A DNA stretch of 64,000 nucleotides from a virus (Duplodnaviria > Caudoviricetes). The notes under the pieces were generated by a model. The model saw only the letters and a list, made by a program, of their open reading frames with translations, ran no database searches and had not been told where the DNA came from. The translations under genes were made by a program, and so were the position numbers. The stretch lies in IMG/VR virus record IMGVR_UViG_3300035498_000956; one strand, written 5' to 3'. Positions 1,509-61,400 of the stretch are shown piece by piece (position 1 is the stretch's first letter; each line of letters begins with the position of its first letter).

Positions 1509-2409
1509 CAAGTACGGTGTCCTTGCAGCATAATACATAAACTGCATTGAATAACTCTTTCTAATTGACTTGGACATCCAGCAGTGGATAACAGGGCGGA
1601 AGCTCATCGAGATTGCTCGAATAAGCACCGTGAACGACTGAGTGAAAGAGGCCCATGTCAATGGGCGTGCGACAGTCTCAACTTTAGTATAACAAAAAGA
1701 AGCTAAAGGCACTATATGTGCAGAATTATAAATTTAATAAGTTTAATATTTAAAGGAGAATTAAATATGATTTATGAACGCAATTCAAATGTTTTTGAGA
1801 AGATTGATTCAGAAGAAAAAGCTTATTGGCTAGGTTTTTTATACGCTGACGGATATGTTGATCCAGAACGAGGTGAATTAATTCTAGGATTGGCAGACAA
1901 AGATAAAGAACATATAGTAAAATTTCAAAACTTTTTAGAAACAAATGCACCATATAAAGATAAAATTAATAATCAAAATAAACCTTATCGTTTTTTTAGG
2001 TTATATGATCAAAAAATCTGTTTAGATTTAGAAAAACAAGGTTTATACAGAAAAAAATCGTTAACTTTAACACCTCAAATGCAAATGTCAAATGAGTTAT
2101 TAATTCATTGGAGCAGAGGATTATTTGATGGCGATGGTAGTATTTATCCACAAAAAAATAGTGTTAATTCAATTAGATATCGAATTAATTTGGTTGGAAC
2201 AGAAGATATATTAAATTATGTAATGAATTTATGGCAAATTAATAAGAAATTAGATAGAAATAGAAGTGTTCCAAAATTTGTAGTAAGTGGAAAACGAGAA
2301 GTAAATAAAATTTTACATATGTTATATGATGATGCTTCTATCTATTTAGATAGAAAATATCAATTGGCGAAAAAAGCTATAGAGCAAAATTTATAATTTG
2401 AAGATATTG
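1509..2409 (+). mobile_element. Group I intron 3 in tape measure gene, carrying LAGLIDADG endonuclease
   Basis: P1 ACAU|C pairs with GGUGU (U-G at the splice site); P7 GACTG 1636-1640 / CAGTC 1673-1677; ends G2409. Removal gives AT|C GGT ACA GCA ATG (IGTAM). Confidence 0.88.
1767..2396 (+). CDS. Intron-encoded LAGLIDADG homing endonuclease (two motifs)
   Basis: YWLGFLYADGYV and WSRGLFDGDGSI motifs, C-terminal LYDDASIYLDRK; AAGGAG RBS before ATG 1767. Confidence 0.9.
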   Translation: MIYERNSNVFEKIDSEEKAYWLGFLYADGYVDPERGELILGLADKDKEHIVKFQNFLETNAPYKDKINNQNKPYRFFRLYDQKICLDLEKQGLYRKKSLTLTPQMQMSNELLIHWSRGLFDGDGSIYPQKNSVNSIRYRINLVGTEDILNYVMNLWQINKKLDRNRSVPKFVVSGKREVNKILHMLYDDASIYLDRKYQLAKKAIEQNL

Positions 2410-5400
2410 CGGTACAGCAATGAAAACCATCATTGCAAGATTTACAGAATTAAAAGAAAATGTATCTGCAGCAGATAGTGAATTTGATGATCTTGATTAT
2501 AATGATGTAGATACAGCATTAAAGTCTGTTGGTATTTCAATTAAAGATGCTAGTGGTCAATTTAGAGATCTAGATGATGTCTTTCTTGAATTGGCAGAAA
2601 AATGGGATACACTTGATAGAAATACTCAACGTTATATCGCAACTACCGCGGCGGGTAGTAGGCAACAGTCGAGATTTATTGCAATGATGAGTGATTATGA
2701 TAGAACACTTGAATTACAAGCAACAGCTTATGAGTCAACTGGACAATCAACTGTACAATTTAATAAATATCAAGATACTGTTCAATATAAAATTGAACAA
2801 ATTCAAAATACTTGGGAGCAATTAAGAGTTTCGTTATTGGATCAGGATGTTTATAAAGATGCTTTAGATTTAGGTAATAAATTATTAAGTGGGATTAAAA
2901 AAGATATTAGTATAAAAGATTTGGCATTTATTGCTGTAATCGGCTTAACAGTTGGTAAAAACTTTGTTTCTCAATTTATTAATGGCATGAAAACAAATAT
3001 TGGAACTGTAGCAGATGTTTTTAACAAACAGGTTACTCCTGCATTTAAAACAGCTGCAAGTACAGCTGGTAATTCTATTAATACAGGAATAGCGACAGTT
3101 TTAAGCAAAAGTAAGATAGGAACAAAAGTTAGTAGTTTAATTTTTTCTGATAATGCAAAAAAACAATTAGAGCAAAATCTTCAACAAGCAACAAGCGCAT
3201 TTAATCAACAAATGGAAAAAATTAATACTCAATTTTTAGAATTAACTAATAGACAAAAGAATCTTTTTTCTTTAGCTGATCAGCCTATTTCTGCTCAAGC
3301 ATTAACTGATTTTTATACTAAATTACAACAAGTTGGTTCTGTTACGGAATTAACAGAAACAGAAGTAAATGAATTATATAAAAAAATGGGTGGAACTGAA
3401 GAACTTACTGCTGGCACTGCAGCATATGATCAGTTCGTTGCAAAATTACAACAAATGGGAGTAGTTCTTCAGCAAGATATAACTAATGAGGAAAATACGA
3501 CTACAGCTTTACGACAATATATTCAAGCAGTCAGAGAAGGGTCAGCATCTAGTCAACAATTACAGCAAGCAACTCAAAATTTAAGTAATTCTTTTGGTGC
3601 TCTTGGTCCAGTAGTTAATAGTGCAGCAAGTGCAATAAAAGGTGCATTTAAATCTTCAATAGGATCTGCAATTACTAGTGGAATTATTACTGCTATTTCT
3701 ACAGGAGATTTTTCAACTGCTTTAAAGACAACTGGTTTAACTTTAGTAACAGGCATGATTTCTCAATTAGTTCCTCAATTTATATCTTTTTTAGGAAAGC
3801 AACTCGCCGCGTTTATCCCTACACTTATTCCTATATTATCAAATCCAGCCGCTCTAGCTGCTATAGCAATAGGAACAGTTGTAGTTGTTGGCTTAGGTGC
3901 ACTAATTTATAATTATTATAAGAAAAACAATGTATGGACTTCTTTATCTGAGAGCTTAGATGCAGAGATTTCAACTATGAAAAAAAATCTTGAAGATTTA
4001 AAAGAAGCTGCCGAAACTACTACATCTACAGCAAAAGCAGATCAACAAGCAGTTTCAACAATGGAGAGTGTAAAAAAAGAATGGGATGAATTAAATAATA
4101 AAATTAGTTTAACTGAGGATGAACAAGAAAGATACAATGAGTTAGTTGAAACAATAAATGATGAATATTCAGATACAGTTGCATATTATGATGAAATGAA
4201 TAATAAATTAATTATTAGTGAAGATTTGTGGAATCAGCAATTAGAAGATGCAAAAGAAATTGCGGAATTATCTCAAGCAATAGCTCTTGGCACTCAGAGT
4301 AATGTAAATGCAGAAGAATATGAACTTGAAAAAACAAAAAATCAAAAAGCTAAACTTCAATTAGAAGGCGGTTTTTATACTAAGACTAATGAGAATGGAG
4401 ATACTACATACACTACAGATATTTATGAGACAGGTACTTCTGCTGATTTTTCAGCTTTACAAGATGTTATCAATCAAGGATTAACAGATTATGATAGTAT
4501 TAGTCAAGCAATAAATGATAATTATTCGACCGCCATTGCCTCAGGTCGTATAGCAGCAGATGATAATAAAGCTGATGAAATTAATCAAATGTTAAAATTA
4601 TTTGACGATTATTATAAAGAGCATGGTACACAAGGAGAAGTTGATCTTTCTTATGTGCTGCAACAAATTTTAGATAATAATCAAGATGCGTTAGAATTTT
4701 ATCAACAAATATTAGACGAGCAAGAGGGAATTGATGACATTATTAATGAAGCAGATGAAGCGTCTAACCAACGATATATAGAATCACAACGTCAAAATTA
4801 TCAAAGTAATATTACTGCAACAGTAGGAGCAACGCAAGCTAGTATGGTAACAAATACTGATGCAGCTGATGAGCTTATTGAATTACAACGTTTATTACTT
4901 GAAGATGATCAAGAGGCAATAGAAAAAACTAGTCAATATATTAATGAAGAATTTAAATCATTAACCAATTTAGATCCAGCAGCACTCTCTGAAGGCTCAG
5001 ATTTTATGTCATCATTAATAAATGCAGAAGATTTTTCGAGTGCGGCCGAAGCTGTAAACTTATCCGAAGAAACATTATCAGCAATCACAGGCTTAACTGC
5101 AGATACATTTGTTAACATGAGAGGAGATGCAGAACATTTAGCAAAACTTATTAGAGATAATACATTTACTCAGTATATTGAAAATGATATGCAAACTGCA
5201 GCAGAAGAAATTCCAGAGCAATTAGTTGATAGCTTTGCTGAAGTAAGTGAAAATATAAGCACAATGTCTCTTGATGAATACCAGCAAAGTATTCAAAAGT
5301 TAGAAGGTCAATATGGAGATGCTTATAAAGACAATATTGAATCTGCAGCTACTGTTGATTATGAACAATATGCAAATATGTTTTTAACACAGAATGAAGG

Positions 5401-8400
5401 CGGACAAATTACTGGAGGATTTTTCTCTAATCTATTTACGTCAGAAGATGCAGCAACTGCTTTTACTGATGCAATAAAAAATGGAGATTTTGAAGCTGCT
5501 GGAGATGCTCTTAGAGATCAAGGCCAGGGTATGTGGGCGGATCTTTTTACTCAAATTGATCCTACAACTATCTCAACAATGTCCAATTTTATTGCTAATA
5601 ATGTTACTGGAGATGAAGCTCAAGCACAAGCCAAAGAAAAACTTCAAACAATGTTGACTAATATATTAAATGACGAGGATAGTGTATTATCAGAAAATGA
5701 ATTAGATTTGATATTAAATGCAAATGTTAACTGGGACGAAGTGAATCCTTTAAATGTAGAAGAAACAATGGAAGACTTGGCCGAACAGCTAATGACAGAT
5801 TCAAGTGGTGCTCTTAGTTTTAATGAAGCTTTAGAAAAAGTTAAATCAGTGTTTGGAGATATTAATGATTTAGTAGGTTCATTTGAATATGGATCAGCAA
5901 CTGCTTTTAATACATTAATCACATCAGCAAAAGAAGCAGGAGAAACAATGGTTACTCAAGCTGATACAATTACTTCAATAATGGATGAGATTGATACGTC
6001 TATTGGCTTAACTAGAGAACAATTAAACACTCTCGATGAAGCTGGATTAAGTGATGTGTATGAATTAGATATTGATACTGGTAAATTTGAAATTAAAATG
6101 GAGAAAGTGCAAAATCTATTTTCAGAAACAATTGCAACAAATGAAGAAGCATTGAAAAAAGAATTAGGAACTGAACAAGAACGTTTAAATACTGTAACAT
6201 CTCAAATTCAAGAATTAGATAATAAAATAGCAAATTATAAAAAATTAGGTATGGATACTACTGAATTAGAAGAAGAAAAAACTGAGTTACTAAAAGAACA
6301 ATCGACTTTAACAGATCAAATTGCAGAACGAACAGAAGAGGCAGAAAAAGAAATCTCATTAGAATTTCAAAATCAAGTTTCACTACTTGAAGCAATAAAA
6401 GAAACAATTCAAGAGGCACAAGATGCAGTAGATGAAGCGGAAAAAACTTTAAAAGAAAAACAAGAAGCATATGATGAAGCAAAAGAAGCAGCAGACAATG
6501 CAGCAGCAGTACGAGAAAAAGCTATTGCTGATGCATATGAAGAAGAAGCTAAAACGATTAAAGAAGCAGAAGAAGCTGCAGAGAGTGCTTTAAAATCATT
6601 ACAAGATGCGTATGATACTTTAGCAGATGCCCAAGAAAAACTTGCAGAAGCTCAAGAAGATTTATATGAAGCAATTCATGGTTCTGCTGATTGGGATAGC
6701 GGCCTTGAACGATTAGATTCAGCAAATCAAATGTTAACTGGATTAAATACTCGTTTAAAAACCTTAAAATCAAATATGGAAGATGCTTCAGATTTGGATA
6801 GTATGGTTTCTAGTACAGAAGCCTATATTGCGGCACAAAAAGAAAAAATGAATTTACTTGAAGCAGAAAAACAATCTACACAACAAAGTTTAGATAATAT
6901 GTTATCTGACCTTTATAGTAATGACGCATATGCCAATGTTCGTGATTCAGTTCAATTCACTGTTGATGGACGAATGATGCTTGACACCAGTGCTCTTGAA
7001 AATGCAGATGCAAGTGATGCTATTAAAGATGCATTAGTAAAATTACAAGCAGAATATAATAAAGAAGTAGACTCAATGGCAACTGCAACTGAAGAAATGG
7101 AAGCTCTTGAAGATGAATGGGAGAACTATTATACAACAGCATTAAAAAATTATATATCAACTCAAGATAAAGTAGTTAAAATTTTAAAAGAAAATGCTCA
7201 AGCAGAGATAGATGCAGTACAAGATAAATATGATAATTTAAAAGAGGCAGATGATGATTATATCAGTGCTCTACAGGATGCAATTCAGAAACAACGTGAT
7301 TTAAGAGATCAAGCAAGTCAATATGAAGAATTAGCAACAAAAGAAAAGAAATTATCTTTAATGTCAAGAGATACCTCTGGAGCTAATCAAAAAGAAGTTG
7401 CAACACTTGAGGATGAAGTTGAAAACACTCGTCAATCATTACTTGATAAAGAAGTTGATAATTTAATTTCCTCTATGCAAGAAATGTATGAAACTCAACA
7501 AAAGGCAAGAGAAGAAGAAATTGAATATTTAAACGCTTTGATGGAAACTACTGATTGGTGGATTCAAGCTAATGAAATTATTCAGGGATGGACAGATTCT
7601 GCTGATGCTGTTGAATGGTTTATGAGCAATGATTCATCTGTTCAAGACATGAGTACTGAAGCTCAAGTTCAATATGCACAAGAAGCTGAAACTGATTATA
7701 CAAATGCTATTAGTCTTGAAGCTGTTCAACAAGTATTAGCTGATGTTGGAGGTAGCATTACAGATGCAATTCAAGCAGATGTGGATAGTGTTAATGAAAT
7801 ACTTACAACATTAAATATTAGTACTGAAGTAGGAAACCAAGTGCTAGAAGCTGGTGTAGTTGCTAGAGATGAGGCTATAGAAACAGCTCAAACAGCTATT
7901 GAATCTGCACAAGAAACAGTTACTAATGCTGAAGAAAATTTAGTAAAAATGCAAACTGCTTATCAAGAAGCTTTGGATGACGTGACTACAAAAACACAAG
8001 AAGCTGCAGAAACTAGAGCACAAGCAGTTAAAGATGCTTATGATACAGAGTCGACTACTTTAGAAGCATTAACCACTGCAGAACAAGATTTGTCAACAGC
8101 TCAAGCAGATCTTGATACTGCTACTCAAAATTTAGATGAAGCATTGAAAGGATTAGGTACAGATGCTGCGACTGTAATATCTGGTATTGATGAACAAATT
8201 CGTCAATTACAGAACAATTGTGTGCAGTATATACAAGATTTAGAAAATCAAAGGATGTCCGAAGCTTCAGAACGATATTACGTTAGTGTTAATGGAAAAG
8301 ATGATTTGGAAAGCCTACATAGTTTAGAAGCTTCTGGTACTCCTCTTAGTAATGAAAACTGGTTTACTAGTGAGCAAGAGGCACAAGATTTTATCAATTC

Positions 8401-8818
8401 TAATGCACAGTATTTAAGTTCTCAAGGAAAAAATCTTTCTGTAAAACATTACGCATCAGGTGGTATGGTAGACTTTACTGGTCCAGCTTGGGTAGATGGT
8501 ACAAAATCAGAACCAGAAGCATTCTTAGACCCAGAAGATACAAGTAACATCGCAGCATTAGCTCAAGCACTACGTTCAATGAATCTTTCAACTCCACTAG
8601 TTAACCAAACAGAATCTCCTATATCCAACATTTCCTCAACTCTCAATAACGTAACCAATAACTCCAACACATCATATACAGGAGGAACTGTTAGTATCAA
8701 TCTTAACATAGAATCAATTTCAAGTGATTACGATGTAGAATCAATGTTAGACTTAATGGAAGAACGTATTAACGAAGCATCTAATCCAATTGGATCTTCT
8801 GTTATCCTTCGTAAATAA
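2410..8818 (+). CDS. Tail tape measure protein, main exon (spliced product within window 2240 aa)
   Basis: GISIKDASGQFRDLDDVFLELAEKW and AAGSRQQSRFIAMM TMP motifs, hydrophobic central segment, long acidic coiled coils, C-terminal YASGGMVDFTGPAWVDGT; followed by Dit and Tal genes. Confidence 0.92.
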
Positions 8819-18128: not shown

Positions 18129-18485
18129 ATGTTAATAAATCGTAATATAATAATTCAATTACAGCCGATTTTTAATAAAATAAAACAAAATACAAATATT
18201 GGAATTTATACTCAATATAATTTTCTTAAATTAAAGAAAATCTATGAAGATGAATTATCTATTTTTAATGAACAAAAAGAAAGATTTATGAATTATTGTG
18301 AACCAACTTCAAATCCAAATGAATTTAAGATAAAAGATGAATATCTAGAACAATGTACTAAAGAATTGAATCAACTTAATTCAATATCTATTCAAATTCC
18401 AGATATCTATTTTTCTCTTGATGAATTGGAATCATTAAATCTTACATTTGAAGAATTAGAGCTATTAATGCCATTTATTAAATAA
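18129..18485 (+). CDS. Small tail-module-associated hypothetical protein
   Basis: AGGAGG RBS; follows tail-tip gene; C-terminal LDELESLNLTFEELELLMPFI. Confidence 0.6.
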   Translation: MLINRNIIIQLQPIFNKIKQNTNIGIYTQYNFLKLKKIYEDELSIFNEQKERFMNYCEPTSNPNEFKIKDEYLEQCTKELNQLNSISIQIPDIYFSLDELESLNLTFEELELLMPFIK

Positions 18486-18492
18486 TCATTTT

Positions 18493-18697
18493 GGAGTTTT
18501 TGTGCAAGTTGCACAAAAACTCCTTTTTGATTTTATTCACTAAAAATCTTTTTGTGCAAATTGCACAAAAATTTCTATGTTTCAATCATATCCATCCTTT
18601 AAAATTTCTCTTTACTCCATTACCTCTATTAAAATTTTTGTGCAACTTGCACAAATCCAAAAATCCCTATTCCTAATTTTTGTATAAAATTAACAAA
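18493..18697. repeat. Array of palindromes TTTGTGCAA-N-TTGCACAAA (3 perfect, 1 degenerate)
   Basis: Centres at 18508, 18560 and 18646, degenerate copy at ~18678-18697. The first copy extends to a GGAGTTTTT...AAAAACTCC stem with a T-tract (terminator-like). Confidence 0.9.
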
Positions 18698-18776
18698 CTT
18701 TTTTTCCAAAAGGAAAATCTCAAAACTTTTTTCTCAGTTCCTACTTATAATATAGAACGATAGAGAGGTGAGAAAA

Positions 18777-19253
18777 ATGGCATATAATTATCCAAATAAT
18801 AGTCAAAACTATTATAACCAACCAAATATGCAACAAATGCAATTTCAACAACAACAAAACGTTCAACCTTTATTTCCACAACCACAAGGTAACGTTTATT
18901 ATATAAATTCAACGCTTGAAGTTGCAAATGTTCCTACTAGCGCTGGTGTTTCAGTAGCATTGTGTATGCAAGAGGGTTTTATGTATATAAAAACAATGCA
19001 AAATGGAAATCCAATGTTTTGGGCTTATAAAATAACTCCATATGAAAATACTAATCAAAAGGAAGTAACCAAAACTCCAGAAACACCACAAATTAATTTT
19101 AATGAACAATTTGAACAATATAACAATCGTTTCTTAAAATTAGAAGAGCAAGTAAATGGTATACAGGCGGTCATAAATCAAAATAATCAAGCCGCACCAG
19201 TACAACAAACTAATGCAACCCCTAATAGCAAGGGAGGAGATTGGCAATTATGA
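18777..19253 (+). CDS. Gln/Asn/Pro-rich hypothetical protein (cassette gene 1)
   Basis: GAGGTG RBS; low-complexity N-terminus, central globular segment (GFMYIKTMQNG), short coiled coil. Confidence 0.8.
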   Translation: MAYNYPNNSQNYYNQPNMQQMQFQQQQNVQPLFPQPQGNVYYINSTLEVANVPTSAGVSVALCMQEGFMYIKTMQNGNPMFWAYKITPYENTNQKEVTKTPETPQINFNEQFEQYNNRFLKLEEQVNGIQAVINQNNQAAPVQQTNATPNSKGGDWQL

Positions 19254-19492
19254 TAAATTTTAATATGAATCCTATGGAATTAGTTGGCCTATTAAAAGGC
19301 AGAAATCCACAGGAATTAGTAATGTCAATGATTAAAAACAATAACATTAATGATCCAATGATTAATGAATTAATTGGATATGCCGAATCAGGCGATATGA
19401 CAAGCTTAACTAAAGTTGCTGAAGACGTATTTGCAAAACAAGGAAAAAACTTTGATACTGAATTTAATAATTTTATGTCCTTATTGCAATAA
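19250..19492 (+). CDS. Small helical NP-repeat hypothetical protein (cassette gene 2)
   Basis: ATGA overlap with gene 1, GGAGG RBS; MNPMELV...RNPQELVMSMI...NDPMINELI. Confidence 0.8.
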   Translation: MINFNMNPMELVGLLKGRNPQELVMSMIKNNNINDPMINELIGYAESGDMTSLTKVAEDVFAKQGKNFDTEFNNFMSLLQ

Positions 19493-19542
19493 GCCTTTAA
19501 CAATTAAATAAATACTATATTATTTTTTAGGAGGAATCTTTT

Positions 19543-19645
19543 ATGGGAGAAAACGGACTATCAGTTGCTGATGCTTTAGCATTACAGAACAAGAATGGTA
19601 CACAAAACACAGACGGTACTTTTGGTGGAGCAAATGGTGCATGGT
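19543..19645 (+). CDS. Membrane-anchored Cys-rich coiled-coil protein (cassette gene 3), exon 1
   Basis: AGGAGG RBS; MGENGLSVADALALQNKNGTQNTDGTFGGANGAW then TAG created by the intron start. Not in the ORF track. Confidence 0.85.
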
Positions 19646-19811
19646 AGAAACCTGCCACTTTATAAGGTGACTTATATCGAATAATCGCGGAATTAAGCGG
19701 GAAGGCTGAAATGCTAATCCGAACCGAAGGCTTAATAGAATTAAGTCAGGGACAACGCATAGGAGTTGAAAAGATATAACACTCCCACGAGGCCGCGACA
19801 CTATTTAATTA

Positions 19812-19840
19812 TTGACTCCTTAATAAAAATATGTTATAAT
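19812..19840 (+). promoter_or_regulatory. Sigma-A-type promoter inside intron 4 for the HNH gene
   Basis: TTGACT-17 nt-TATAAT with extended TG, followed by AAGGAG RBS. Confidence 0.75.
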
Positions 19841-19865
19841 AAAAATAAAAAAAGGAGTGGATTCT

Positions 19866-20324
19866 ATGTCACAAAAATCAATGACAATGGATGAATATAT
19901 TATTACTAAGACTGGAGAAGTTATAAATAGTAGGAACAATCACATCTTAAAACCTCAACCAAATAGTAAAGGATATTTAAGAGTTAATCTTTGTGGTAAG
20001 CGATATTTTATTCATAGATTAGTAGCTGAAAAATATATTCCAAATCCAGAGAATAAGGAACAGGTAAATCATAAGGATGGTAATAAAAATAATAATTCAG
20101 TAGAAAATTTAGAATGGGTAACAAATCAAGAAAATAGAGATCATGCAATAAAAAATAAGTTACATTTACAAGGAGAAGATTGTCCTTGGTCTAAATTAAA
20201 TCAAATGCAAGTTGATTATATTAGAGCTGATAATACACATTCTAGTCGAGAATTGGCTGATTTATATAATGTTTCAATTCATACCATTAATGATATTAAA
20301 AATTATAAGACATGGAAAAATTAA
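19866..20324 (+). CDS. Intron-encoded HNH homing endonuclease
   Basis: KGYLRVNL...IHRLVAEKYIPNPENKEQVNHKDGNKNNNSVENLEWVTNQEN; C-terminal HTH (SKLNQMQVDYIR...ELADLYNVSIHTINDI). Confidence 0.92.
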   Translation: MSQKSMTMDEYIITKTGEVINSRNNHILKPQPNSKGYLRVNLCGKRYFIHRLVAEKYIPNPENKEQVNHKDGNKNNNSVENLEWVTNQENRDHAIKNKLHLQGEDCPWSKLNQMQVDYIRADNTHSSRELADLYNVSIHTINDIKNYKTWKN

Positions 20325-20405
20325 ATAGTTGAAAAGTTATGCTGAACTATTACGAATAGAAAGTAATAGAAATATAAGATAAAAAACTTATATGATAACA
20401 ATTTG

Positions 20406-21316
20406 GGGTCATCATTTTAATCCTATTCTTTGCTTTTGCAGGTTGGGGCGGCAATCGCAACAATAACGGAGGTAACGAAGGTACTAACACAGTAGTTATT
20501 CCAGCTAATTTAGGCGGCAACAATGGATATAATGCTTGTTGCACTCCAGCTACACAGCAAGGAGTAACTGATGCTTTTAACTTTAATAACCTACAAAATG
20601 GTGTTAGAGGAGTTCAAAATGGTCTTTGCCAAGGTTTCTATACAACAAGTAATGAAATCGCTGGTCTAGGATCACAAATGCAGAATGGTTTTTATAATAA
20701 TGAAGTATCAAATGTAAGAGGTCAGTTTGATATTCAAAATGCTATTAACCAAAATTCCGATTCACTACAAATGTCAATTAATCAAGGTGTTAACGGAATC
20801 CAAAGCACTTTAAATCAAGGTTTCAATTGCACTCAAAACGCAATGAATCAAGGCTTTAACGGAGTACAAAGTGCACTAGCACAAACTAACTATAATATGA
20901 AAGATTGCTGTTGTGAAACAAGAGAATCCATAATGCAATCCAACTTTAACAATCAAACATCATTTAATGGTATCCAAAATACAATGCAACAAGGATTCTG
21001 CGGCGTACAGAACGGACAGGAAAATCTAAAGTATGCTCTAGCTCAATCCACTTGTGACATAATCTCAAATGCAGATAAAAATACTGATAGAATCATCAAC
21101 CATCTAGTTCAATCTGAGATGGATGCTCTAAGGAATCAATTACAATCTGCTAATTTCCAACTATCACAGCAAGCTCAAACTAGCAATATAATTAATCAAC
21201 TACAACCTGTTGCACGCCCAGCTTATTTGGTTCAAAGTCCTTATATGTCTGCCCCTCTAGGTGGATTTGGCGGCAACGGTACATTCAATAATAACAATAG
21301 TTGCGGTTGTTGTTAA
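20406..21316 (+). CDS. Membrane-anchored Cys-rich coiled-coil protein (cassette gene 3), exon 2; spliced product 337 aa
   Basis: Open frame from 20408 continuous with ORF 20678..21316; TM segment WWVIILILFFAFAGWGG; 11-aa NQGFNGxQ repeats; CC, CCCE and terminal CGCC clusters. Confidence 0.85.
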
Positions 21317-21329
21317 GGAGGGATGACGT

Positions 21330-21761
21330 ATGAGTTGTCCTACAGCAAAATGTCTTTGTGAGCATTTAATAATTTCACAAAGTGTAACGTTTTCTAATGG
21401 AACATTAATCATCAATATACCTAGTGGTAATTATGAGAATGATGAAAAATATTGTATAATAGTAGCACAATCAATTCCTACAACTACAACTATCGCGGCG
21501 AATGTTGTGATCACTATTGGTACAGGTACAACTCAATATCCACTAGTCAATAGTAACTGTACAAATGTAAATGCTTATGAAATTCAATCTAGAACACGTT
21601 ACTCTACAGTAGTTCATACAAATATCCAAAGTGGAGTATTCCAGCTTACTGGACCAGTTTGTAGAAATTCTTCTTCCTCTTGTTCTAGCATTTTATCTTT
21701 ACCTATTGCTGCCGCGAAAAGTACGGCAGAAACAAATACTGAAAATACAGAGGAGGAATAA
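21330..21761 (+). CDS. Cys-rich beta-rich hypothetical protein (cassette gene 4)
   Basis: AGGAGG RBS; N-terminal CPTAKCLC, alternating Thr/Ile/Val strands, further Cys residues. Confidence 0.8.
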   Translation: MSCPTAKCLCEHLIISQSVTFSNGTLIINIPSGNYENDEKYCIIVAQSIPTTTTIAANVVITIGTGTTQYPLVNSNCTNVNAYEIQSRTRYSTVVHTNIQSGVFQLTGPVCRNSSSSCSSILSLPIAAAKSTAETNTENTEEE

Positions 21762-21764
21762 TTT

Positions 21765-22208
21765 ATGGAACAGTTATTGAAAAAAGTAGAAAAAGAACTC
21801 CATACTATTGGAGAAAAAGGAATTACAAACGCAAATCTTGATGCAACTTTTAAGCTAATAGATATTTATAAAGATATTAAAGAGAGTTGTTATTATGATT
21901 ATAAGACTAAAAAAGGAGAGGAAATGACTTACTCTGTTGATGAACAAGCAGGTACTTGGGAAGCAAGTGGCTCATATGGAACAAGAGAAACAAGTCCACT
22001 CCATAGTCGTATGCATAAATACACTACAAAAATAAAAAATGGCGTAGATGAATATCTTAGCGGCGAAAATCAAGAGGATAAAATTGCAGGCATTAGTGTA
22101 GTTATGGAAACTATTTGTTCATTTGTTGAGGAACTTTATGACTATGCTAGTACAGATAAAGAGAAAGAAGTTATTAAAAAACACATCCACATGATGAAAA
22201 ATTGGTAA
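21765..22208 (+). CDS. Helical hypothetical protein (cassette gene 5)
   Basis: GGAGG RBS; amphipathic helices MEQLLKKVEKEL...LIDIYKDIKE and ...EKEVIKKHIHMM. Confidence 0.8.
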   Translation: MEQLLKKVEKELHTIGEKGITNANLDATFKLIDIYKDIKESCYYDYKTKKGEEMTYSVDEQAGTWEASGSYGTRETSPLHSRMHKYTTKIKNGVDEYLSGENQEDKIAGISVVMETICSFVEELYDYASTDKEKEVIKKHIHMMKNW

Positions 22209-22212
22209 AATA

Positions 22213-22243
22213 AAAAGGAGTAGATTTTTAATCTACTCCTTTT
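22213..22243. terminator. Bidirectional terminator at the strand switch
   Basis: AAAAGGAGTAGATT-ttt-AATCTACTCCTTTT between convergent genes. Confidence 0.85.
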
Positions 22244-22245
22244 CT

Positions 22246-22971
22246 TTATATAAATTCAACCATTTGGCTTTGAGATTGAACATAATCAACATATCGTCCA
22301 ATTAAAATTGCGTCTGCTTCATCATTAGTAACGTTAATATCAAATAAAGTCTTAACCTTAATTTGTGCATTTTTCTTTTGATCTGAACGTGAGCGTCCTT
22401 TAATTTGATTGTAATTTCTCCATGTCCCAGGCGGCACAACAGAGAATGGGATTCCTTTCTCATAGGTATAATTAATCAAAACACCTTGTAATGAGGCTAA
22501 TTTTTTATAAGTAGTAACACTTTCATTTCTACCACTCTCTAATTGTTGCAATTGAATATCCTCAAAAGCAACTATATCTGGATGCCAATTTTCAATCATT
22601 GAAGCCACCCACTGTTTCGTTTTACTAACTCGTTCCGTATGATTATTTCCTTCCGATTGCCATTTTCCGTACTTTATGAGATGGCCTGAATCATACACAC
22701 TCCATCCACTAGTAATTGTTGCTTGATCAAAAGCTAATACTCTAAAACCTGTTTTTTTAACGGGGCGGCAATCTACGCTAAAATGAGGATTCTGTGAGCA
22801 GAGCGGACAGATTGGTTTTCTTCTCCATTTATCAAGAGATAGGAACACAGAATGATCATTAGGGCATTTAAATTCCATCTCACTTTTTAGGTTCAAATAA
22901 GTGGTTGAGATTAAATCCCAACCACTACTTACTACCTCCTGTTTTACATCATCATATTTTAATTTACTCAT
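22246..22971 (-). CDS. ruvC: RuvC-like Holliday junction resolvase with N-terminal zinc ribbon
   Basis: VLAFDQATITSGWSV, VAFED, NDEADAILIG; N-terminal CPNDH...CPLC. Confidence 0.8.
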   Translation of the reverse strand: MSKLKYDDVKQEVVSSGWDLISTTYLNLKSEMEFKCPNDHSVFLSLDKWRRKPICPLCSQNPHFSVDCRPVKKTGFRVLAFDQATITSGWSVYDSGHLIKYGKWQSEGNNHTERVSKTKQWVASMIENWHPDIVAFEDIQLQQLESGRNESVTTYKKLASLQGVLINYTYEKGIPFSVVPPGTWRNYNQIKGRSRSDQKKNAQIKVKTLFDINVTNDEADAILIGRYVDYVQSQSQMVEFI

Positions 22972-58470: not shown

Positions 58471-61400
58471 ATGTTTCATCCATTTTTAGGATATCATGGT
58501 GGAAGCGGAGACGGAAGTGGAGGATCTGGTACTGATGGCAGAGGGATTGATTCTATTAGTTTTACTTCTAGTACTGGTGGCAGCACTGCAGGAATAGCTG
58601 GTGCGACTGATACTTATACTATTGTTTATACAGATGGTTCTACTAGTACTTTTAAAGTACAAAATGGTGCTGATGGTAAAGTTGGTAGTGACGGTAAAGA
58701 TGGTAAAGACGGTACTAATGGAACTAATGGTATTGACGGTAAAGATGGACAGTCGGCGTATGAAATATGGCGAGACAATCTAGATCCAGATGGTTCTGTA
58801 GATGAATTTTTACTATATATAAAAGGTAAAACTGGCGCGGATGGTCAAGATGGTGAGTCTTTAGATTATACATGGGACGGAACTAAATTAGGCATAAAGA
58901 AAGAAAGTGAAACAACTTACACTTATGTCGATCTACAAGGTCCTCAAGGTGAAAAAGGTGCTGATGGTACTAATGGTAAAGATGGTACTAATGGTGTTGA
59001 CGGCGCGCAAGGTCCAGCTGGTAATGATGGTGAAGATGGTATATCTGTTACTGATGCAAAAATTGATGACAATGGTCATTTAATTGTAACATTATCAAAT
59101 GGTAAGACAATTGATGCGGGTAATGCCAAGGGTGCGGATGGCCTACAGGGAGAAAATGGTGCAGATGGCACCAATGGCTCGGATGGTCAAGATGGTCAAG
59201 ATGGTAAATCGGCGTATAGAATTTGGTTAGATTTAGGTAATACTGGTAGTGAACAAGACTTTATCGATAGTTTAAAGGGAGATAAAGGCGATACTGGTGA
59301 AACTGGAGCTAATGGTCAAGATGGTCAGGACGGTACAAATGGTACTGATGGTGTTGATGGTGTTTCTCTTGATTTTCAATGGGACGGCACTAAGTTAGGT
59401 GTAAAAACATCCGAACAAACTGAGTACTCTTATGTCGATTTAAAAGGCGAAAAGGGAGATCAAGGTGAACAAGGTGTAGCTGGTGAAAATGGTAAAGACG
59501 GAGAAGATGGTGAAGATGGATTCTCTCCAGTAATTGAAGTCTTTAAGCACGTTATGACTTGGACTATTGCTACTAGTGAGACTCCTGGTAATGTAGCATA
59601 TTATAATAATGATACTAGCGTTACTAAATTTGATTTAACTGGTAGAGATAGCGTTGATATTATTTGCTGGTGGTTTGCTAACAGTAATGTTACAGATTCT
59701 ATTGATTTACAAATCGATTTCTATAAAGATGGACAAATAGTTAAAACAGATACAGTAGATGCTGTTACTAGTCGTCAACTTGAATATGAGACTACTGATT
59801 ATGATTATTTAACTATTACATCACCTAATAATATTAATGCAACTGGTCAAATTGTTTATAACGATGAGACTCAGGATGCTGGATATTTCTTAAAAATTAC
59901 TTATAAAGAAAACGATATTTTCCAAACAATAGTAACTGAGAATTTAAAAGGTTCAGATGGTGTTGATGGAGAAGCTGGCGCGACAGGTACAGATGGTATT
60001 TCTGTTACGGACGCAGAAGTAGATGAAAATGGCGATTTGATTATCACATTAAGCACTGGCGATAAAATCAATGCTGGTCACGTTAAAGGCGAAGATGGTA
60101 TTGATGGTGAAGCTGGTGGCGCGAAAGGTGATAAAGGTGACGATGGACGTGGTATAAAATCTGTTTCTGTTGATGAGGATGGTAATATTTATGTTACTTA
60201 TACTGATGAAACTACCGAATATGTTGGTAAAATTGAATTTACTGGTATAAAAGGTGACCAAGGTGAAAAGGGAGACACTGGTGAAAAAGGTGAACAGGGT
60301 GCTGATGGTCGTGGTATAGCATCAACTAGCATTGATGAAGATGGTAATCTATCTGTTACTTATACTGATAATGAAACTGAAGTCGTTGGTAATATAAAAG
60401 GACCAAAAGGTGACACTGGCTCAGCGGGCCAAAATGGTGTTGATGGAGATGACGGTATTTCTATCACTAATGCTGAAGTTAATAGTGATGGCGATCTAAT
60501 TGTTACATTAAGCAATAATACTACTATTAACGCTGGCAATGTTATGGGTGACGATGGAGACGATGGTCGTGGAATTAAATCTGTTGCTATTGATCTCACA
60601 GGTAATTTAACTGTATATTATACTGATGATACTGAGGAATCAGTAGGTAATGTTAAAGGACCTCAAGGCGAGAAAGGTGAGAAAGGCGACACTGGTGAAC
60701 AGGGCGAACAAGGTCTTCAAGGTGAAAAGGGTGATACTGGTGAACAGGGTATCCAAGGTGAGCAAGGTATTCAAGGCGAACAGGGTATCCAAGGTGAAAA
60801 AGGAGATAAAGGTGAAGATGGCATATCTATTACTGATGCTTCTATTACTGATGAGGGCACATTAAAACTCGAATTTAGTGATGGTAGTTCTAAAGATGTA
60901 GGTAAAGTTGTCGGAGCTGACGGTCAAGATGGTACTAATGGTACTGATGGAACAAATGGTACTGATGGTAAAGATGGCGTATCTCCAACTATTACAGAAA
61001 ATCCTGATAATACTTCTAAAGTTTATAAATTAAATATTACAAATGCCGATGGCACTGTTATTATAACTCCAAACCTAAAGGGCGCTGATGGTGATGGTAC
61101 TGGTGATAATACTAGTACAATTTTAATTGATAATTTTACAATTAAGAAAACTTCAGAAGATGAAGACGGAGTAATTTATGGCGCGGGTGCTGATATTACA
61201 GGAACAACTTATACTATTGATAATGATTATAATATTAGCTTACTAGACGATGCAGCGGAAATTAGTGATACTACTTCAACAACTCAAGCTGGTACTGGTG
61301 CGGAAATATTTAATGTTAGTAGACAAAATTTTGGTGATACTAACACTAACTATGCTGTTGGTAATTATTCTCATGCAGAAGGTACTGGTACTACAGCAGT

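What the first reader, a model, noticed from the sequence alone, without database searches (positions are those of the whole stretch)
18777..22208. Self-contained five-gene Gln/Cys-rich cassette: candidate undescribed phage structural or spore-surface system
Seen: five closely spaced plus-strand genes bounded by a palindrome array and a bidirectional terminator: (1) Q/N/P low-complexity protein, (2) small NP-repeat helical protein, (3) 337-aa protein with Gly/Asn linker, one TM helix, 11-residue NQGFNGxQ coiled-coil repeats and CC/CCCE/CGCC clusters, (4) beta-rich protein with N-terminal CPTAKCLC, (5) helical protein. None has an enzyme motif, and they are not standard head, tail or lysis genes. 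Known: Cys-clustered, disulfide-crosslinked proteins typify endospore crust/exosporium proteins and Ena appendages (Cys-bearing N-terminal connector plus jelly-roll). My recollection, unverified here, is that similar clusters recur unannotated in gut Firmicutes phages. Inference: a membrane-anchored coiled-coil stalk with a beta-sandwich partner and assembly factors that decorates the host cell, spore or virion.
Basis: partly seen in the sequence, partly recalled or inferred. Interest (0 to 1): 0.8.

Follow-up and report, generated by a model that had tools for sequence, protein, structure and literature searches.

The report
Portable gut-phage stalk-and-knob gene cassette
The five genes are real and are one copy of a widespread but uncharacterised gene module of gut viruses, which probably builds a cysteine-rich rod with a greasy anchor and a swappable small tip protein; it is not tied to spore-forming hosts.

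Summary
Five tightly packed plus-strand genes (18777-22208) lie between a triple palindrome and a hairpin terminator. Gene 3 is split by a 760-nt HNH-carrying intron and splices to 337 aa. None of the five matches Pfam or NCBIfam. Gene 3 belongs to phrog_16490 (function unknown).

The gene order g1-g2-g3-g4-g5 recurs in dozens of uncultured gut phage contigs, in Clostridium perfringens phage CPD1 and in bajarodcaudo virus 2. Its genomic position varies: after tail genes, inside head modules, next to lysis genes, or in early regions. Gene 3 alone, with other partners, also occurs in crAss-like and Bacteroides phages and in Methanomassiliicoccales viruses. The spore-surface reading therefore fails.

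Gene 3 has a TM-grade helix, 11/3 hydrophobic periodicity, two long predicted helices broken at an invariant CCC, and a Cys-rich tail. Gene 4 folds confidently as a beta-sandwich that resembles phage fibre tips only weakly. In divergent cassettes that slot holds unrelated beta proteins, some BclA_C-like.

Best reading: a modular anchored stalk with an exchangeable knob plus helper proteins. Its destination (virion or membrane) is unresolved. This scan met the same module before on other DNA. This copy lacks the small Cys-His-Asp enzyme gene that most relatives carry.

The parts
18497..18655 (.). Array of three perfect 23-nt palindromes TTTTTGTGCAA-N-TTGCACAAAAA, with a degenerate fourth at 18677-18702, upstream of g1. 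The first also forms a terminator-like hairpin after the preceding gene.
   Evidence: Found only here in the window, and in none of the 141 loci held when searched.
18777..19253 (+). g1: 158 aa. Q/N/P/Y-rich low-complexity N-terminus, a conserved ~55-aa central block, a coiled-coil-like C-terminal part and a conserved KGG..W.L end.
   Evidence: No Pfam or NCBIfam hit. Detected in 70 loci.
19250..19492 (+). g2: 80-aa Met/Asn/Pro-rich protein that looks helical. Start codon overlaps the g1 stop.
   Evidence: Detected in 51 loci.
19543..19645 (+). g3 exon 1: 34 codons plus the first base of the junction Trp codon. Encodes the conserved MGENGLSVADALAL.. N-terminus.
19646..20405 (+). 760-nt group-I-like intron in g3, ending in G, inserted in the Trp-Trp codons at the start of the hydrophobic helix.
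   Evidence: The same site is occupied in L001, L007, L010, L011, L012, L088 and L089, and empty in sister alleles L008/9 and L013-15. P3, P7 and P8 complementarity was seen by eye. No Rfam match.
19866..20324 (+). HNH_3/NUMOD4 homing-endonuclease ORF inside the intron.
   Evidence: Pfam HNH_3 7.7e-13. phrog_59 4e-47.
20406..21316 (+). g3 exon 2: hydrophobic helix, Gly-rich linker, CCTPAT motif, hendecad-repeat helical region, invariant CCC, conserved C-terminal helix (DRIINHL..LR.ELQSA.FQLSQ.AQT), P.PAY..SPY tail and terminal Cys cluster.
   Evidence: phrog_16490 7.4e-19. 801 homologues.
21330..21761 (+). g4: 143-aa beta-sandwich protein with an N-terminal C-x4-C-x-C peptide and further conserved Cys.
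   Evidence: AF2 pLDDT 86.8, 8 strands. 526 homologues. 240 representatives at 50% identity. Alignment.
21765..22208 (+). g5: 147-aa protein that looks helical from its sequence (no model was made).
   Evidence: phrog_28802 5.5e-9, unknown function. Detected in 74 loci.
22213..22243 (.). Hairpin terminator shared with the convergent RuvC-like gene (22246-22971, minus strand).

Best explanation
The cassette is one copy of a portable accessory module of gut viruses. It most likely builds a modular 'stalk-and-knob' structure.

- g3 is the conserved core. It has a short acidic N-terminal peptide and a very hydrophobic helix flanked by Trp and Gly-rich linkers, which acts as the anchor. About 210 residues of 11/3-periodic alpha-helix follow, predicted as two long helices broken at an invariant CCC. 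The protein ends in a Pro/Tyr/Cys-rich tail.
- g4 is a small beta-sandwich tip protein. Its Cys-bearing ends could be fastened to the Cys clusters of g3 by disulfides or a bound metal.
- g1 (low-complexity region plus coiled coil), g2 (small helical protein) and g5 (helical protein) are non-enzymatic partners or assembly helpers.

All partners lack export signals, so assembly should take place in the cytoplasm, usually late in infection. The structure would be exposed only at lysis, either on the virion or on membrane remnants, where the exchangeable tip would bind a ligand.

Shown here: gene structure, splicing, conservation, synteny, periodicity, the g4 fold and the variable occupant of slot 4. 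Inferred: the g3-g4 contact, the role of the cysteines, the oligomeric state, the destination and the ligand.
For: - Synteny g1-g2-g3-g4-g5 holds in most of 79 IMG/VR loci, in CPD1, in bajarodcaudo virus 2 and in a Bacilli-bin contig.
- The module sits in different genomic contexts. It follows Dit and a 2297-aa tail protein here. It lies between the minor head protein and the scaffold in the L062 group, after an endolysin in L053, and between a phosphoesterase and RtcB in L060. It lies among recombination genes in CPD1 and C3_41T2LP.
- g3 has one TM-grade helix, 3.65-residue periodicity and 11/22-residue self-similarity. AF2 predicts helices 59-165 and 171-265 broken at the CCC. C44, C45, C169 and C198 are invariant and the terminal Cys are nearly invariant.
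- g4 gives a confident beta-sandwich model. Its nearest matches outside its own family are the C-terminal ends of long fibre, collagen-like and receptor-binding proteins in BFVD (E about 1e-4, TM about 0.45) and the C-terminal domain of a Pa193 baseplate/tail-fibre chain (Z 5.6).
- Slot 4 is exchangeable. In divergent cassettes it holds beta-rich proteins unrelated by sequence to g4. Three of them hit Pfam BclA_C, a trimeric fibre knob, below threshold (2.8e-6, 2e-4, 1.7e-3).
- Gut-phage virions are known to use disulfides and head fibres. The crAss001 authors note that uncharacterised proteins may play the fibre role in crassviruses that lack gp21/gp29 (PMC10172136).
Against: - No direct evidence that g3 and g4 touch. 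No fused form was found, either for g3 or among longer g4 hits, which look like chimeric gene calls.
- The g3 model is low-confidence (pLDDT 54.5) and only a monomer could be folded.
- The fibre-tip resemblance of g4 is weak. Z 5.6 is below the usual noise level for a best hit, and no PDB Foldseek hit has E<=1e-3.
- A 15-residue, highly conserved, strongly hydrophobic helix is unusual for a soluble virion fibre.
- Placement among early or recombination genes in some phages is unusual for a structural protein.
- crAss001, the one crassvirus with a full virion atlas, did not appear among the g3-family tblastn hits.
Confidence: 0.4

Rival explanations
1. An intracellular, membrane-tethered complex. 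g3 inserts N-out/C-in, so its helical rod and the partner proteins stay on the cytoplasmic face of the host membrane. There the complex would act on the host or on phage assembly. It could sequester a host factor or defence protein through the variable slot-4 protein, or organise replication or assembly at the membrane, as phi29 p16.7 does.
For: - g1, g2, g4 and g5 have no signal peptide or TM segment.
- The N-terminal tail of g3 is acidic and lacks Lys/Arg near the helix, whereas an Arg lies within about 3-12 residues after the helix in most homologues.
- The proteins are Cys-rich, which suits a reducing compartment.
- The module sits among early or recombination genes in CPD1, C3_41T2LP and L060.
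- A variable slot-4 protein could equally reflect host-specific intracellular targets.
Against: - The positive-inside signal is weak and is ambiguous in the archaeal homologue.
- Most copies sit at the end of late operons or inside head modules.
- BclA_C-like and fibre-tip-like folds are typical of extracellular fibres.
- No DNA-binding or enzymatic domain was found.
Confidence: 0.25
2. A lysis or egress accessory. g3 would act as an unusual large holin-like or spanin-like membrane protein, with the other proteins as regulators.
For: - Here the cassette occupies the end of the late operon, where lysis genes usually sit.
- It directly follows an endolysin in L053 and lies about 1-2 kb from the holin and carboxypeptidase genes in cr116_1.
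- g3 shares the outline of an i-spanin: an N-terminal TM helix, two helical segments and Cys residues.
- The sixth gene found in relatives has a weak Tae4 (cell-wall amidase) hit, E 0.018.
Against: - No holin, spanin or endolysin family hit was found.
- g3 is two to three times the size of holins and i-spanins, and no lipoprotein partner is present.
- Carriers such as cr116_1 and L053 have separate canonical lysis genes.
- The module occurs in phages of Gram-positive (single-membrane) hosts, where spanins are not needed, and inside head modules.
Confidence: 0.1
3. Internal capsid cargo or ejection proteins. g3's hydrophobic helix would insert into the recipient membrane at infection.
For: - In about 25 small phages and in bajarodcaudo virus 2 the module lies between the portal or minor head protein and the scaffold, where internal head proteins are often encoded.
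- Virion cargo proteins with TM helices are known; crAss001 gp45 is an example (PMC10172136).
- A small Cys-His-Asp enzyme in relatives could act as a maturation protease.
Against: - The module moves between phages of all three tail types and into non-structural regions.
- An exchangeable knob is not expected for cargo.
- No similarity to known ejection proteins was found.
Confidence: 0.07
4. One reading: a spore-surface or exosporium-like (Ena/BclA/CotY-type) system that decorates host spores.
For: - Cys-clustered proteins, and an N-terminal Cys peptide on a beta-sandwich (g4).
- Some slot-4 variants weakly resemble BclA_C.
- Some carriers infect Clostridium.
Against: - The core gene occurs in phages of Bacteroides, in crassviruses and in Methanomassiliicoccales viruses.
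- No DUF3992, CotZ or BclA_C hit for the window's proteins, and no collagen repeats in g3.
- Most carriers appear to be lytic phages of unknown hosts.
Confidence: 0.03

Closest known systems
phrog_16490, including crAss-like phage genes annotated 'spike protein/glycoprotein' or 'outer capsid protein/viral fiber' (e.g. cr116_1 QOR59421.1, Bacteroides phage C3_41T2LP WLZ21182.1, Methanomassiliicoccales virus vir215_00065)
   Same: g3 matches the family profile (7.4e-19). It shares the Gly-flanked hydrophobic helix, the CCC motif, the C-terminal helix and the P.PAY tail.
   Different: The family has no known function, and the 'spike/fiber' labels appear to be coiled-coil look-alike annotations. 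The Bacteroides and archaeal versions carry a longer N-terminal domain and different neighbouring genes.
BclA, the collagen-like nap protein of the Bacillus exosporium: N-terminal anchoring peptide, trimeric stalk and C-terminal TNF/C1q-like knob
   Same: The overall logic of anchor, long fibrous stalk and small beta knob. Slot-4 proteins of divergent cassettes hit Pfam BclA_C below threshold.
   Different: Here stalk and knob are separate polypeptides. The stalk is alpha-helical with hendecad repeats, not collagen. The window's g4 has no BclA_C hit and no TNF-like structural match. The hosts are not restricted to spore-formers.
Phage fibres with exchangeable tips: crAss001 head fibres gp21/gp29, phi29 gp8.5, and the P22/Sf6 coiled-coil tail needle with a knob
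   Same: An elongated coiled-coil shaft with a small beta tip domain that varies between phages, and use of disulfides in gut-phage virions (PMC10172136).
   Different: No sequence or clear fold relationship. Known fibres lack a TM-grade helix, and they are not encoded as a mobile five- or six-gene unit with low-complexity partners.
Two-component spanins (lambda Rz/Rz1)
   Same: An N-terminal membrane helix, two helical segments separated by a linker, functionally important Cys residues, and late expression.
   Different: g3 is about twice as long. There is no lipoprotein partner and no family hit. The module also occurs in phages of Gram-positive (single-membrane) hosts and away from lysis genes.
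Phage group I introns with HNH homing endonucleases (e.g. in tape-measure, polymerase or lysin genes)
   Same: Insertion in a conserved coding stretch, a T before the 5' splice site, a terminal G, an ORF in a peripheral loop, and intron-plus and intron-minus alleles among relatives.
   Different: No match to Rfam Intron_gpI, even for ORF-less copies. The core pairings were identified by eye only.

Membership tests
phrog_16490 (phage protein family of unknown function) | Significant match to the family profile over most of its length | tested here: met
   g3 exon 2: E 7.4e-19, profile positions 70-281 of 286. vir215_00065 is annotated phrog_16490 in its own record.
Ena endospore appendage proteins (DUF3992) | Match to the DUF3992 sequence model | tested here: not met
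   No Pfam hit for g4 or any other cassette protein at E<=1.
Ena endospore appendage proteins (DUF3992) | Jelly-roll fold like solved Ena subunits | tested here: inconclusive
   No Ena chain appeared among the Foldseek or VIA matches of the g4 model. Absence from these lists does not exclude the fold.
Ena endospore appendage proteins (DUF3992) | Occurrence in spore-forming hosts | tested here: not met
   The module core occurs in Bacteroides phages, crassviruses and Methanomassiliicoccales viruses.
BclA-type exosporium fibre | Collagen-like GXX repeat stalk | tested here: not met
   The g3 sequence has no GXX repeat run. Its periodicity is 11/3 and helical.
BclA-type exosporium fibre | BclA_C (PF18573) C-terminal knob | tested here: not met
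   The window's g4 has no hit. Only slot-4 proteins of divergent cassettes hit the model, and all fall below the 38-bit cut-off (27.7, 21.6, 18.7 bits).
Holins | Small membrane protein matching a holin family | tested here: not met
   g3 is 337 aa and has no holin hit in Pfam or PHROGs.
Two-component spanin | Outer-membrane lipoprotein partner with a lipobox | tested here: not met
   No cassette protein has a signal peptide or lipobox. Only g3 has a hydrophobic segment.
Group I intron | Match to Rfam Intron_gpI (RF00028) | tested here: not met
   No hit at E<=10 in the window, nor at E<=1 in ORF-less copies.
Group I intron | U before the 5' splice site pairing with a G of an internal guide sequence, and a terminal G | tested here: met
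   T19645 followed by ..TGCCA.. in the intron; 6 bp (CATGGT/GCCATG) in L001. The intron ends in G20405. The pairing was read from the sequence, not measured.
Group I intron | Conserved P3-P7-P8 core | tested here: inconclusive
   GCGG/CCGC (CGGGC/GCCCG in L001), the invariant GCATA/TATGC and a hairpin hosting the ORF were seen by eye in a 5-sequence alignment. There are too few sequences for covariation statistics.
Group I intron | Intron-less alleles with an exact junction, and a homing endonuclease ORF | tested here: met
   Intact alleles in L006, L008, L009 and L013-15. HNH_3 at 7.7e-13.

The most novel reading that the evidence does not exclude
The module encodes a previously unrecognised kind of viral accessory structure, shared by viruses of Firmicutes, Bacteroidota and methanogenic archaea of the animal gut. 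It would be a membrane-anchored, cysteine-riveted coiled-coil rod with an interchangeable binding tip. It would be assembled on the inside of the infected cell's membrane and exposed at lysis, or carried on particles, to bind a host or gut ligand.
Probability: 0.3. Interest if true: 0.85.

Novelty: new variant of a known kind. Interest (0 to 1): 0.6.

Why it matters
A five- to six-gene module with hundreds of homologues is conserved across gut viruses of two domains of life, including crAss-like phages. It is often invaded by homing endonucleases, which is a sign of a strongly conserved and widely shared target. Yet it has no assigned function and no Pfam entry. It is a well-defined piece of gut-virome 'dark matter'.

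The module is also directly testable. Cultured carriers exist (C. perfringens phages CPD1, XP41-N3 and CPQ4, and Bacteroides phage C3_41T2LP), so proteomics, deletion mutants and topology assays could settle whether it is a virion fibre, a membrane device or an egress factor. If the tip slot does encode binding specificity, the module could bear on how gut phages attach to hosts or mucus.

Tried and rejected
- Pfam, NCBIfam and PHROGs on all five proteins and on intact or distant homologues gave only function-unknown PHROGs.
- Profile searches against PDB sequences for g4, g3, g1 and the sixth-gene family found nothing significant.
- ESM Atlas searches for g3 and g1 returned only viral hypothetical clusters.
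- Fold searches with the g4 model:
  - No PDB Foldseek hit with E<=1e-3.
  - The best VIA score is Z 5.6.
  - No TNF/C1q/BclA or Ena chain was listed.
- hhalign of the g4 profile against slot-4 proteins of Bacteroides phages and of L062 found no relationship.
- The g3 AF2 monomer was too low in confidence (pLDDT 54.5) to be worth a fold search.
- Fused g3 forms were sought among longer proteins and none was found. Longer g4 hits look like chimeric gene calls.
- A YjcZ-like small-sporulation-protein link, recalled from memory for the Gly-flanked helix, has no NCBIfam support.
- A double-glycine leader with a C39-type processing enzyme was considered. The spacing of the g3 N-terminus does not fit the consensus, and this window lacks the enzyme gene.
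- An MCP-hairpin/CheW analogy (g4 against CheA P5/CheW, Z 3.3-3.9) was judged to be noise.
- The window's own genome is not held.


Full report
**Anatomy**

The window is a low-GC (about 30%) phage. Its plus-strand late operon encodes a siphovirus-type tail: a tape measure, a Sipho_tail/Dit protein and a 2297-aa tail protein. Convergent replication genes follow on the minus strand.

After a 118-aa gene (18129-18485) comes a 290-nt spacer. It holds three perfect copies of the palindrome TTTTTGTGCAA-N-TTGCACAAAAA. This motif occurs nowhere else in the window or in the 141 loci held when it was searched.

Five tightly packed genes follow:
- g1 is at 18777-19253.
- g2 is at 19250-19492; its ATG overlaps the g1 stop.
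- g3 is split into 19543-19645 and 20406-21316.
- g4 is at 21330-21761.
- g5 is at 21765-22208.

A hairpin at 22213-22243 is shared with the convergent RuvC-like gene.

**Splicing of g3**

Exon 1 ends ..GGTGCATGGT and runs straight into a stop codon. An in-frame continuation starts at 20406. Joining the two gives a 337-aa protein reading ..GANGAW-W-VIILILFFAFAGWGG...

Uninterrupted homologues have exactly this junction at both protein and DNA level, as in L006, L008/9, L013-15 and many database proteins. In 54 loci where both flanking motifs could be found, the same site is interrupted in 7 (counting the window). Bajarodcaudo virus 2 carries an eighth interrupted copy. Insert lengths range from about 236 to 760 nt, and near-identical sister phages lack the insert.

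The insert has the following features:
- It follows a T that can pair with a G of a GCCA(TG) guide sequence.
- It ends in G.
- It shows P3-, P7- and P8-like complementarity.
- In the window it carries an HNH_3 endonuclease ORF in the P8-like loop.

Rfam does not recognise it, even in ORF-less copies. I therefore call it group-I-like. The splice junction is secure, but the RNA class is less so.

**What the proteins look like**

None of the five matches Pfam or NCBIfam. g3 matches phrog_16490 and g5 matches phrog_28802, both of unknown function.

g3:
- It is the only protein with a TM-grade hydrophobic segment.
- Beyond that helix, hydrophobic residues recur every 3.65 positions (=11/3), and the sequence is self-similar at offsets 11 and 22.
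- AlphaFold, using 46 sequences, predicts two long helices (59-165 and 171-265 of exon 2) broken at the CCC. Confidence is low (pLDDT 54.5), as expected for a monomer of an oligomeric rod.
- Across 46 homologues the invariant positions include CC, the last Cys of the CCC, a further Cys, the FNF, DR and LR..LQ.A motifs, and P..P in the tail. The terminal Cys pair is nearly invariant.

g4:
- With 75 sequences it folds confidently (pLDDT 86.8) as an eight-stranded beta-sandwich with floppy Cys-bearing ends.
- It has no convincing solved relative. The best match is the C-terminal domain of a Pa193 baseplate/tail-fibre chain at Z 5.6.
- Among predicted viral structures, its nearest non-family matches are the C-terminal ends of long fibre, collagen-like and receptor-binding proteins.

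g1 has a variable Q/N/P/Y-rich head, a conserved central block of about 55 aa and a coiled-coil-like tail. g2 and g5 look helical from their sequences. I made no models for g1, g2 or g5.

**Distribution and synteny**

- g4 has at least 526 homologues, g3 at least 801, and none carries a name or a Pfam domain.
- tblastn finds g3 in 43 phage records. These include C. perfringens phages CPD1, XP41-N3 and CPQ4, many crAss-like phages, lemur and rodent gut viruses and the cultured Bacteroides phage C3_41T2LP.
- A second search, seeded with the cr116_1 protein, adds two Methanomassiliicoccales viruses.
- I ran an HMM-based survey on 79 IMG/VR loci plus the other loci:
  - The order (up)-g1-g2-g3-g4-g5 is complete in 35 loci.
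  - It is fragmented or cut off in 16 more.
  - In 22 loci it appears as g1-g3-g5. A look at the L062 representative of this group shows divergent proteins in the g2 and g4 slots.
- All 56 hits in species-representative genomes lie on contigs from animal-gut metagenomes. All but perhaps one (labelled 'isolate' rather than MAG) come from metagenome bins. The bins span many phyla, and the 160-170 kb contigs are probably whole phage genomes mis-binned.

**The module moves**

The cassette occupies different genomic settings:
- after tail genes in this window and its large relatives;
- between the minor head protein and the scaffold in about 25 small phages and in bajarodcaudo virus 2;
- after an endolysin and a sigma-like gene in L053;
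- between a phosphoesterase and RtcB in L060;
- among recombination genes in CPD1 and C3_41T2LP;
- between the small terminase and capsid genes in cr116_1.

crAss001, in the same subfamily as cr116_1, did not appear among the hits, so the module is accessory there.

Homing endonucleases recur in or next to the cassette:
- as the intron ORF here;
- as free-standing genes in CPD1 and L006;
- as an I-HmuI-type gene in C3_41T2LP;
- possibly as the unexamined 1.1-kb inserts in L017, L018 and L026.

**The variable fourth slot and the missing sixth gene**

In Bacteroides phages g3 is followed by different partners: a 136-180-aa beta-rich protein, a protein of about 170 aa with a coiled-coil C-terminal half, a small charged protein and a DUF7841 protein. 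In divergent Firmicutes-type cassettes the gene after g3 is again a 136-152-aa beta-rich protein, but it is unrelated to g4 by profile comparison. Three of these hit Pfam BclA_C, the trimeric knob of a fibre protein, below threshold. A conserved shaft gene followed by an exchangeable small beta protein is the pattern seen in adhesin-like and receptor-binding fibres. This is my main reason for preferring the stalk-and-knob reading.

Most relatives also carry a sixth gene of about 120 aa with invariant Cys17, His93 and Asp104. Its only family signal is a weak Tae4 hit. It is absent from this 64-kb window. Here the terminator follows g5 directly, whereas in the relative L016 the sixth gene sits between g5 and the same RuvC-like gene.

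**Mechanism**

Best-supported reading (confidence 0.4): g3 forms an oligomeric hendecad rod held by its hydrophobic helix. g4 is a tip protein fastened through the Cys clusters. g1, g2 and g5 are partners or assembly helpers. Because the partners lack export signals, the structure would be built in the cytoplasm and exposed at lysis.

Whether it ends up on the virion or on membrane remnants is open. In favour of a virion role:
- gut-phage virions use disulfides and head fibres;
- the crAss001 authors expect unknown fibre analogues in other crassviruses (PMC10172136).

The TM-grade helix and the early-region placements argue against it.

The main rival (0.25) keeps the rod inside the cell, with N-out/C-in topology. 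It rests on a weak positive-inside signal. Lysis-accessory and capsid-cargo readings are less likely. The spore-surface reading is contradicted by the host range.

**Relation to earlier notes of this scan**

The same module was met before on other DNA (e1-5905185, e1-5905182, e1-5757106), with the same general conclusion. I reached the synteny, phrog_16490 and fibre-tip results independently before reading those notes. The sixth-gene lead came from them, and I checked it myself.

New here:
- this lineage lacks that gene;
- the 11/3 periodicity has been measured;
- a helix break is predicted at the CCC;
- some slot-4 variants hit BclA_C below threshold;
- presence or absence of the intron has been counted across alleles;
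- the topology argument has been made.

**Limits**

- Only monomers could be folded.
- No whole genome is held for this window, so a sixth gene or a lysis cassette elsewhere in the phage cannot be excluded.

Noticed in passing
L016:4085-7000 (IMG/VR 163-kb contig), also L019, L033-36, L041, L046-48: Relatives of this phage need TAG read as a sense codon. With TAG=Q the fragmented g1, g2, g4, g5 and sixth gene of L016 become intact (g1 alone has 4 TAGs). The window's own cassette is open under the standard code.
   Followed up: partly
window 18497-18702: The triple palindrome TTTTTGTGCAA-N-TTGCACAAAAA differs only in its central base. It occurs nowhere else in the window or in any related locus, so it looks like a lineage-specific operator or terminator array rather than part of the portable module.
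   Followed up: partly
window 18129-18485: The 118-aa gene upstream of the cassette is co-conserved in 43 loci, but only in the large-phage clade, where it follows the big tail protein. It is absent from small-phage copies of the module, so it probably belongs to the tail genes.
   Followed up: partly
L011:6785-7147, L027:6759-7121, L053:6623-6991, L062:3211-3645 and about 60 other loci: A sixth gene of about 120 aa with invariant Cys17/His93/Asp104 (a papain-like triad) accompanies the module in most relatives. Its only family signal is a weak Tae4 amidase hit (E 0.018). It is missing from this window.
   Followed up: partly
L061:6066-6335: In one divergent cassette the slot after the knob gene holds an 89-aa rubrerythrin/ferritin-like protein (Pfam Rubrerythrin 9e-8). 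This hints at a metal or redox link for this Cys-rich module.
   Followed up: no
L002:4065-4715, L006:4955-5983, L005:3270-3890, L017/L018/L026 (1.1-kb inserts between g3 and g4): Free-standing homing-endonuclease genes sit between cassette genes in CPD1 and L006, and directly upstream of the g3 homologue in C3_41T2LP. The 1.1-kb inserts between g3 and g4 in L017, L018 and L026 were not examined. These are in addition to the intron in g3.
   Followed up: partly
g4 model (window 21330-21761): Several weak structural matches of g4 are to CheA P5/CheW domains (Z 3.3-3.9). g3 is a membrane-anchored long helical protein with its most conserved stretch at the predicted helix break, which recalls a chemoreceptor outline. 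I judged this to be chance, but the coincidence is recorded.
   Followed up: no
window 58471-63999: An open-ended plus-strand ORF of at least 1843 aa with collagen triple-helix repeats (Pfam Collagen 3e-26). This is another giant fibre-like protein of the phage.
   Followed up: no
window 1716-2396: A LAGLIDADG_3 endonuclease ORF lies just upstream of the 2132-aa ORF at 2420-8818, taken to be the tape measure. This fits the intron-rich nature of this phage noted elsewhere in the scan.
   Followed up: no
P0191, P0193, P0222, P0226, P0231: Database proteins that join half of a g4-like domain to unrelated N- or C-terminal parts (small terminase-like, BIG2/YARHG, ROK kinase). They look like chimeric gene calls or assemblies rather than real fusions.
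   Followed up: partly
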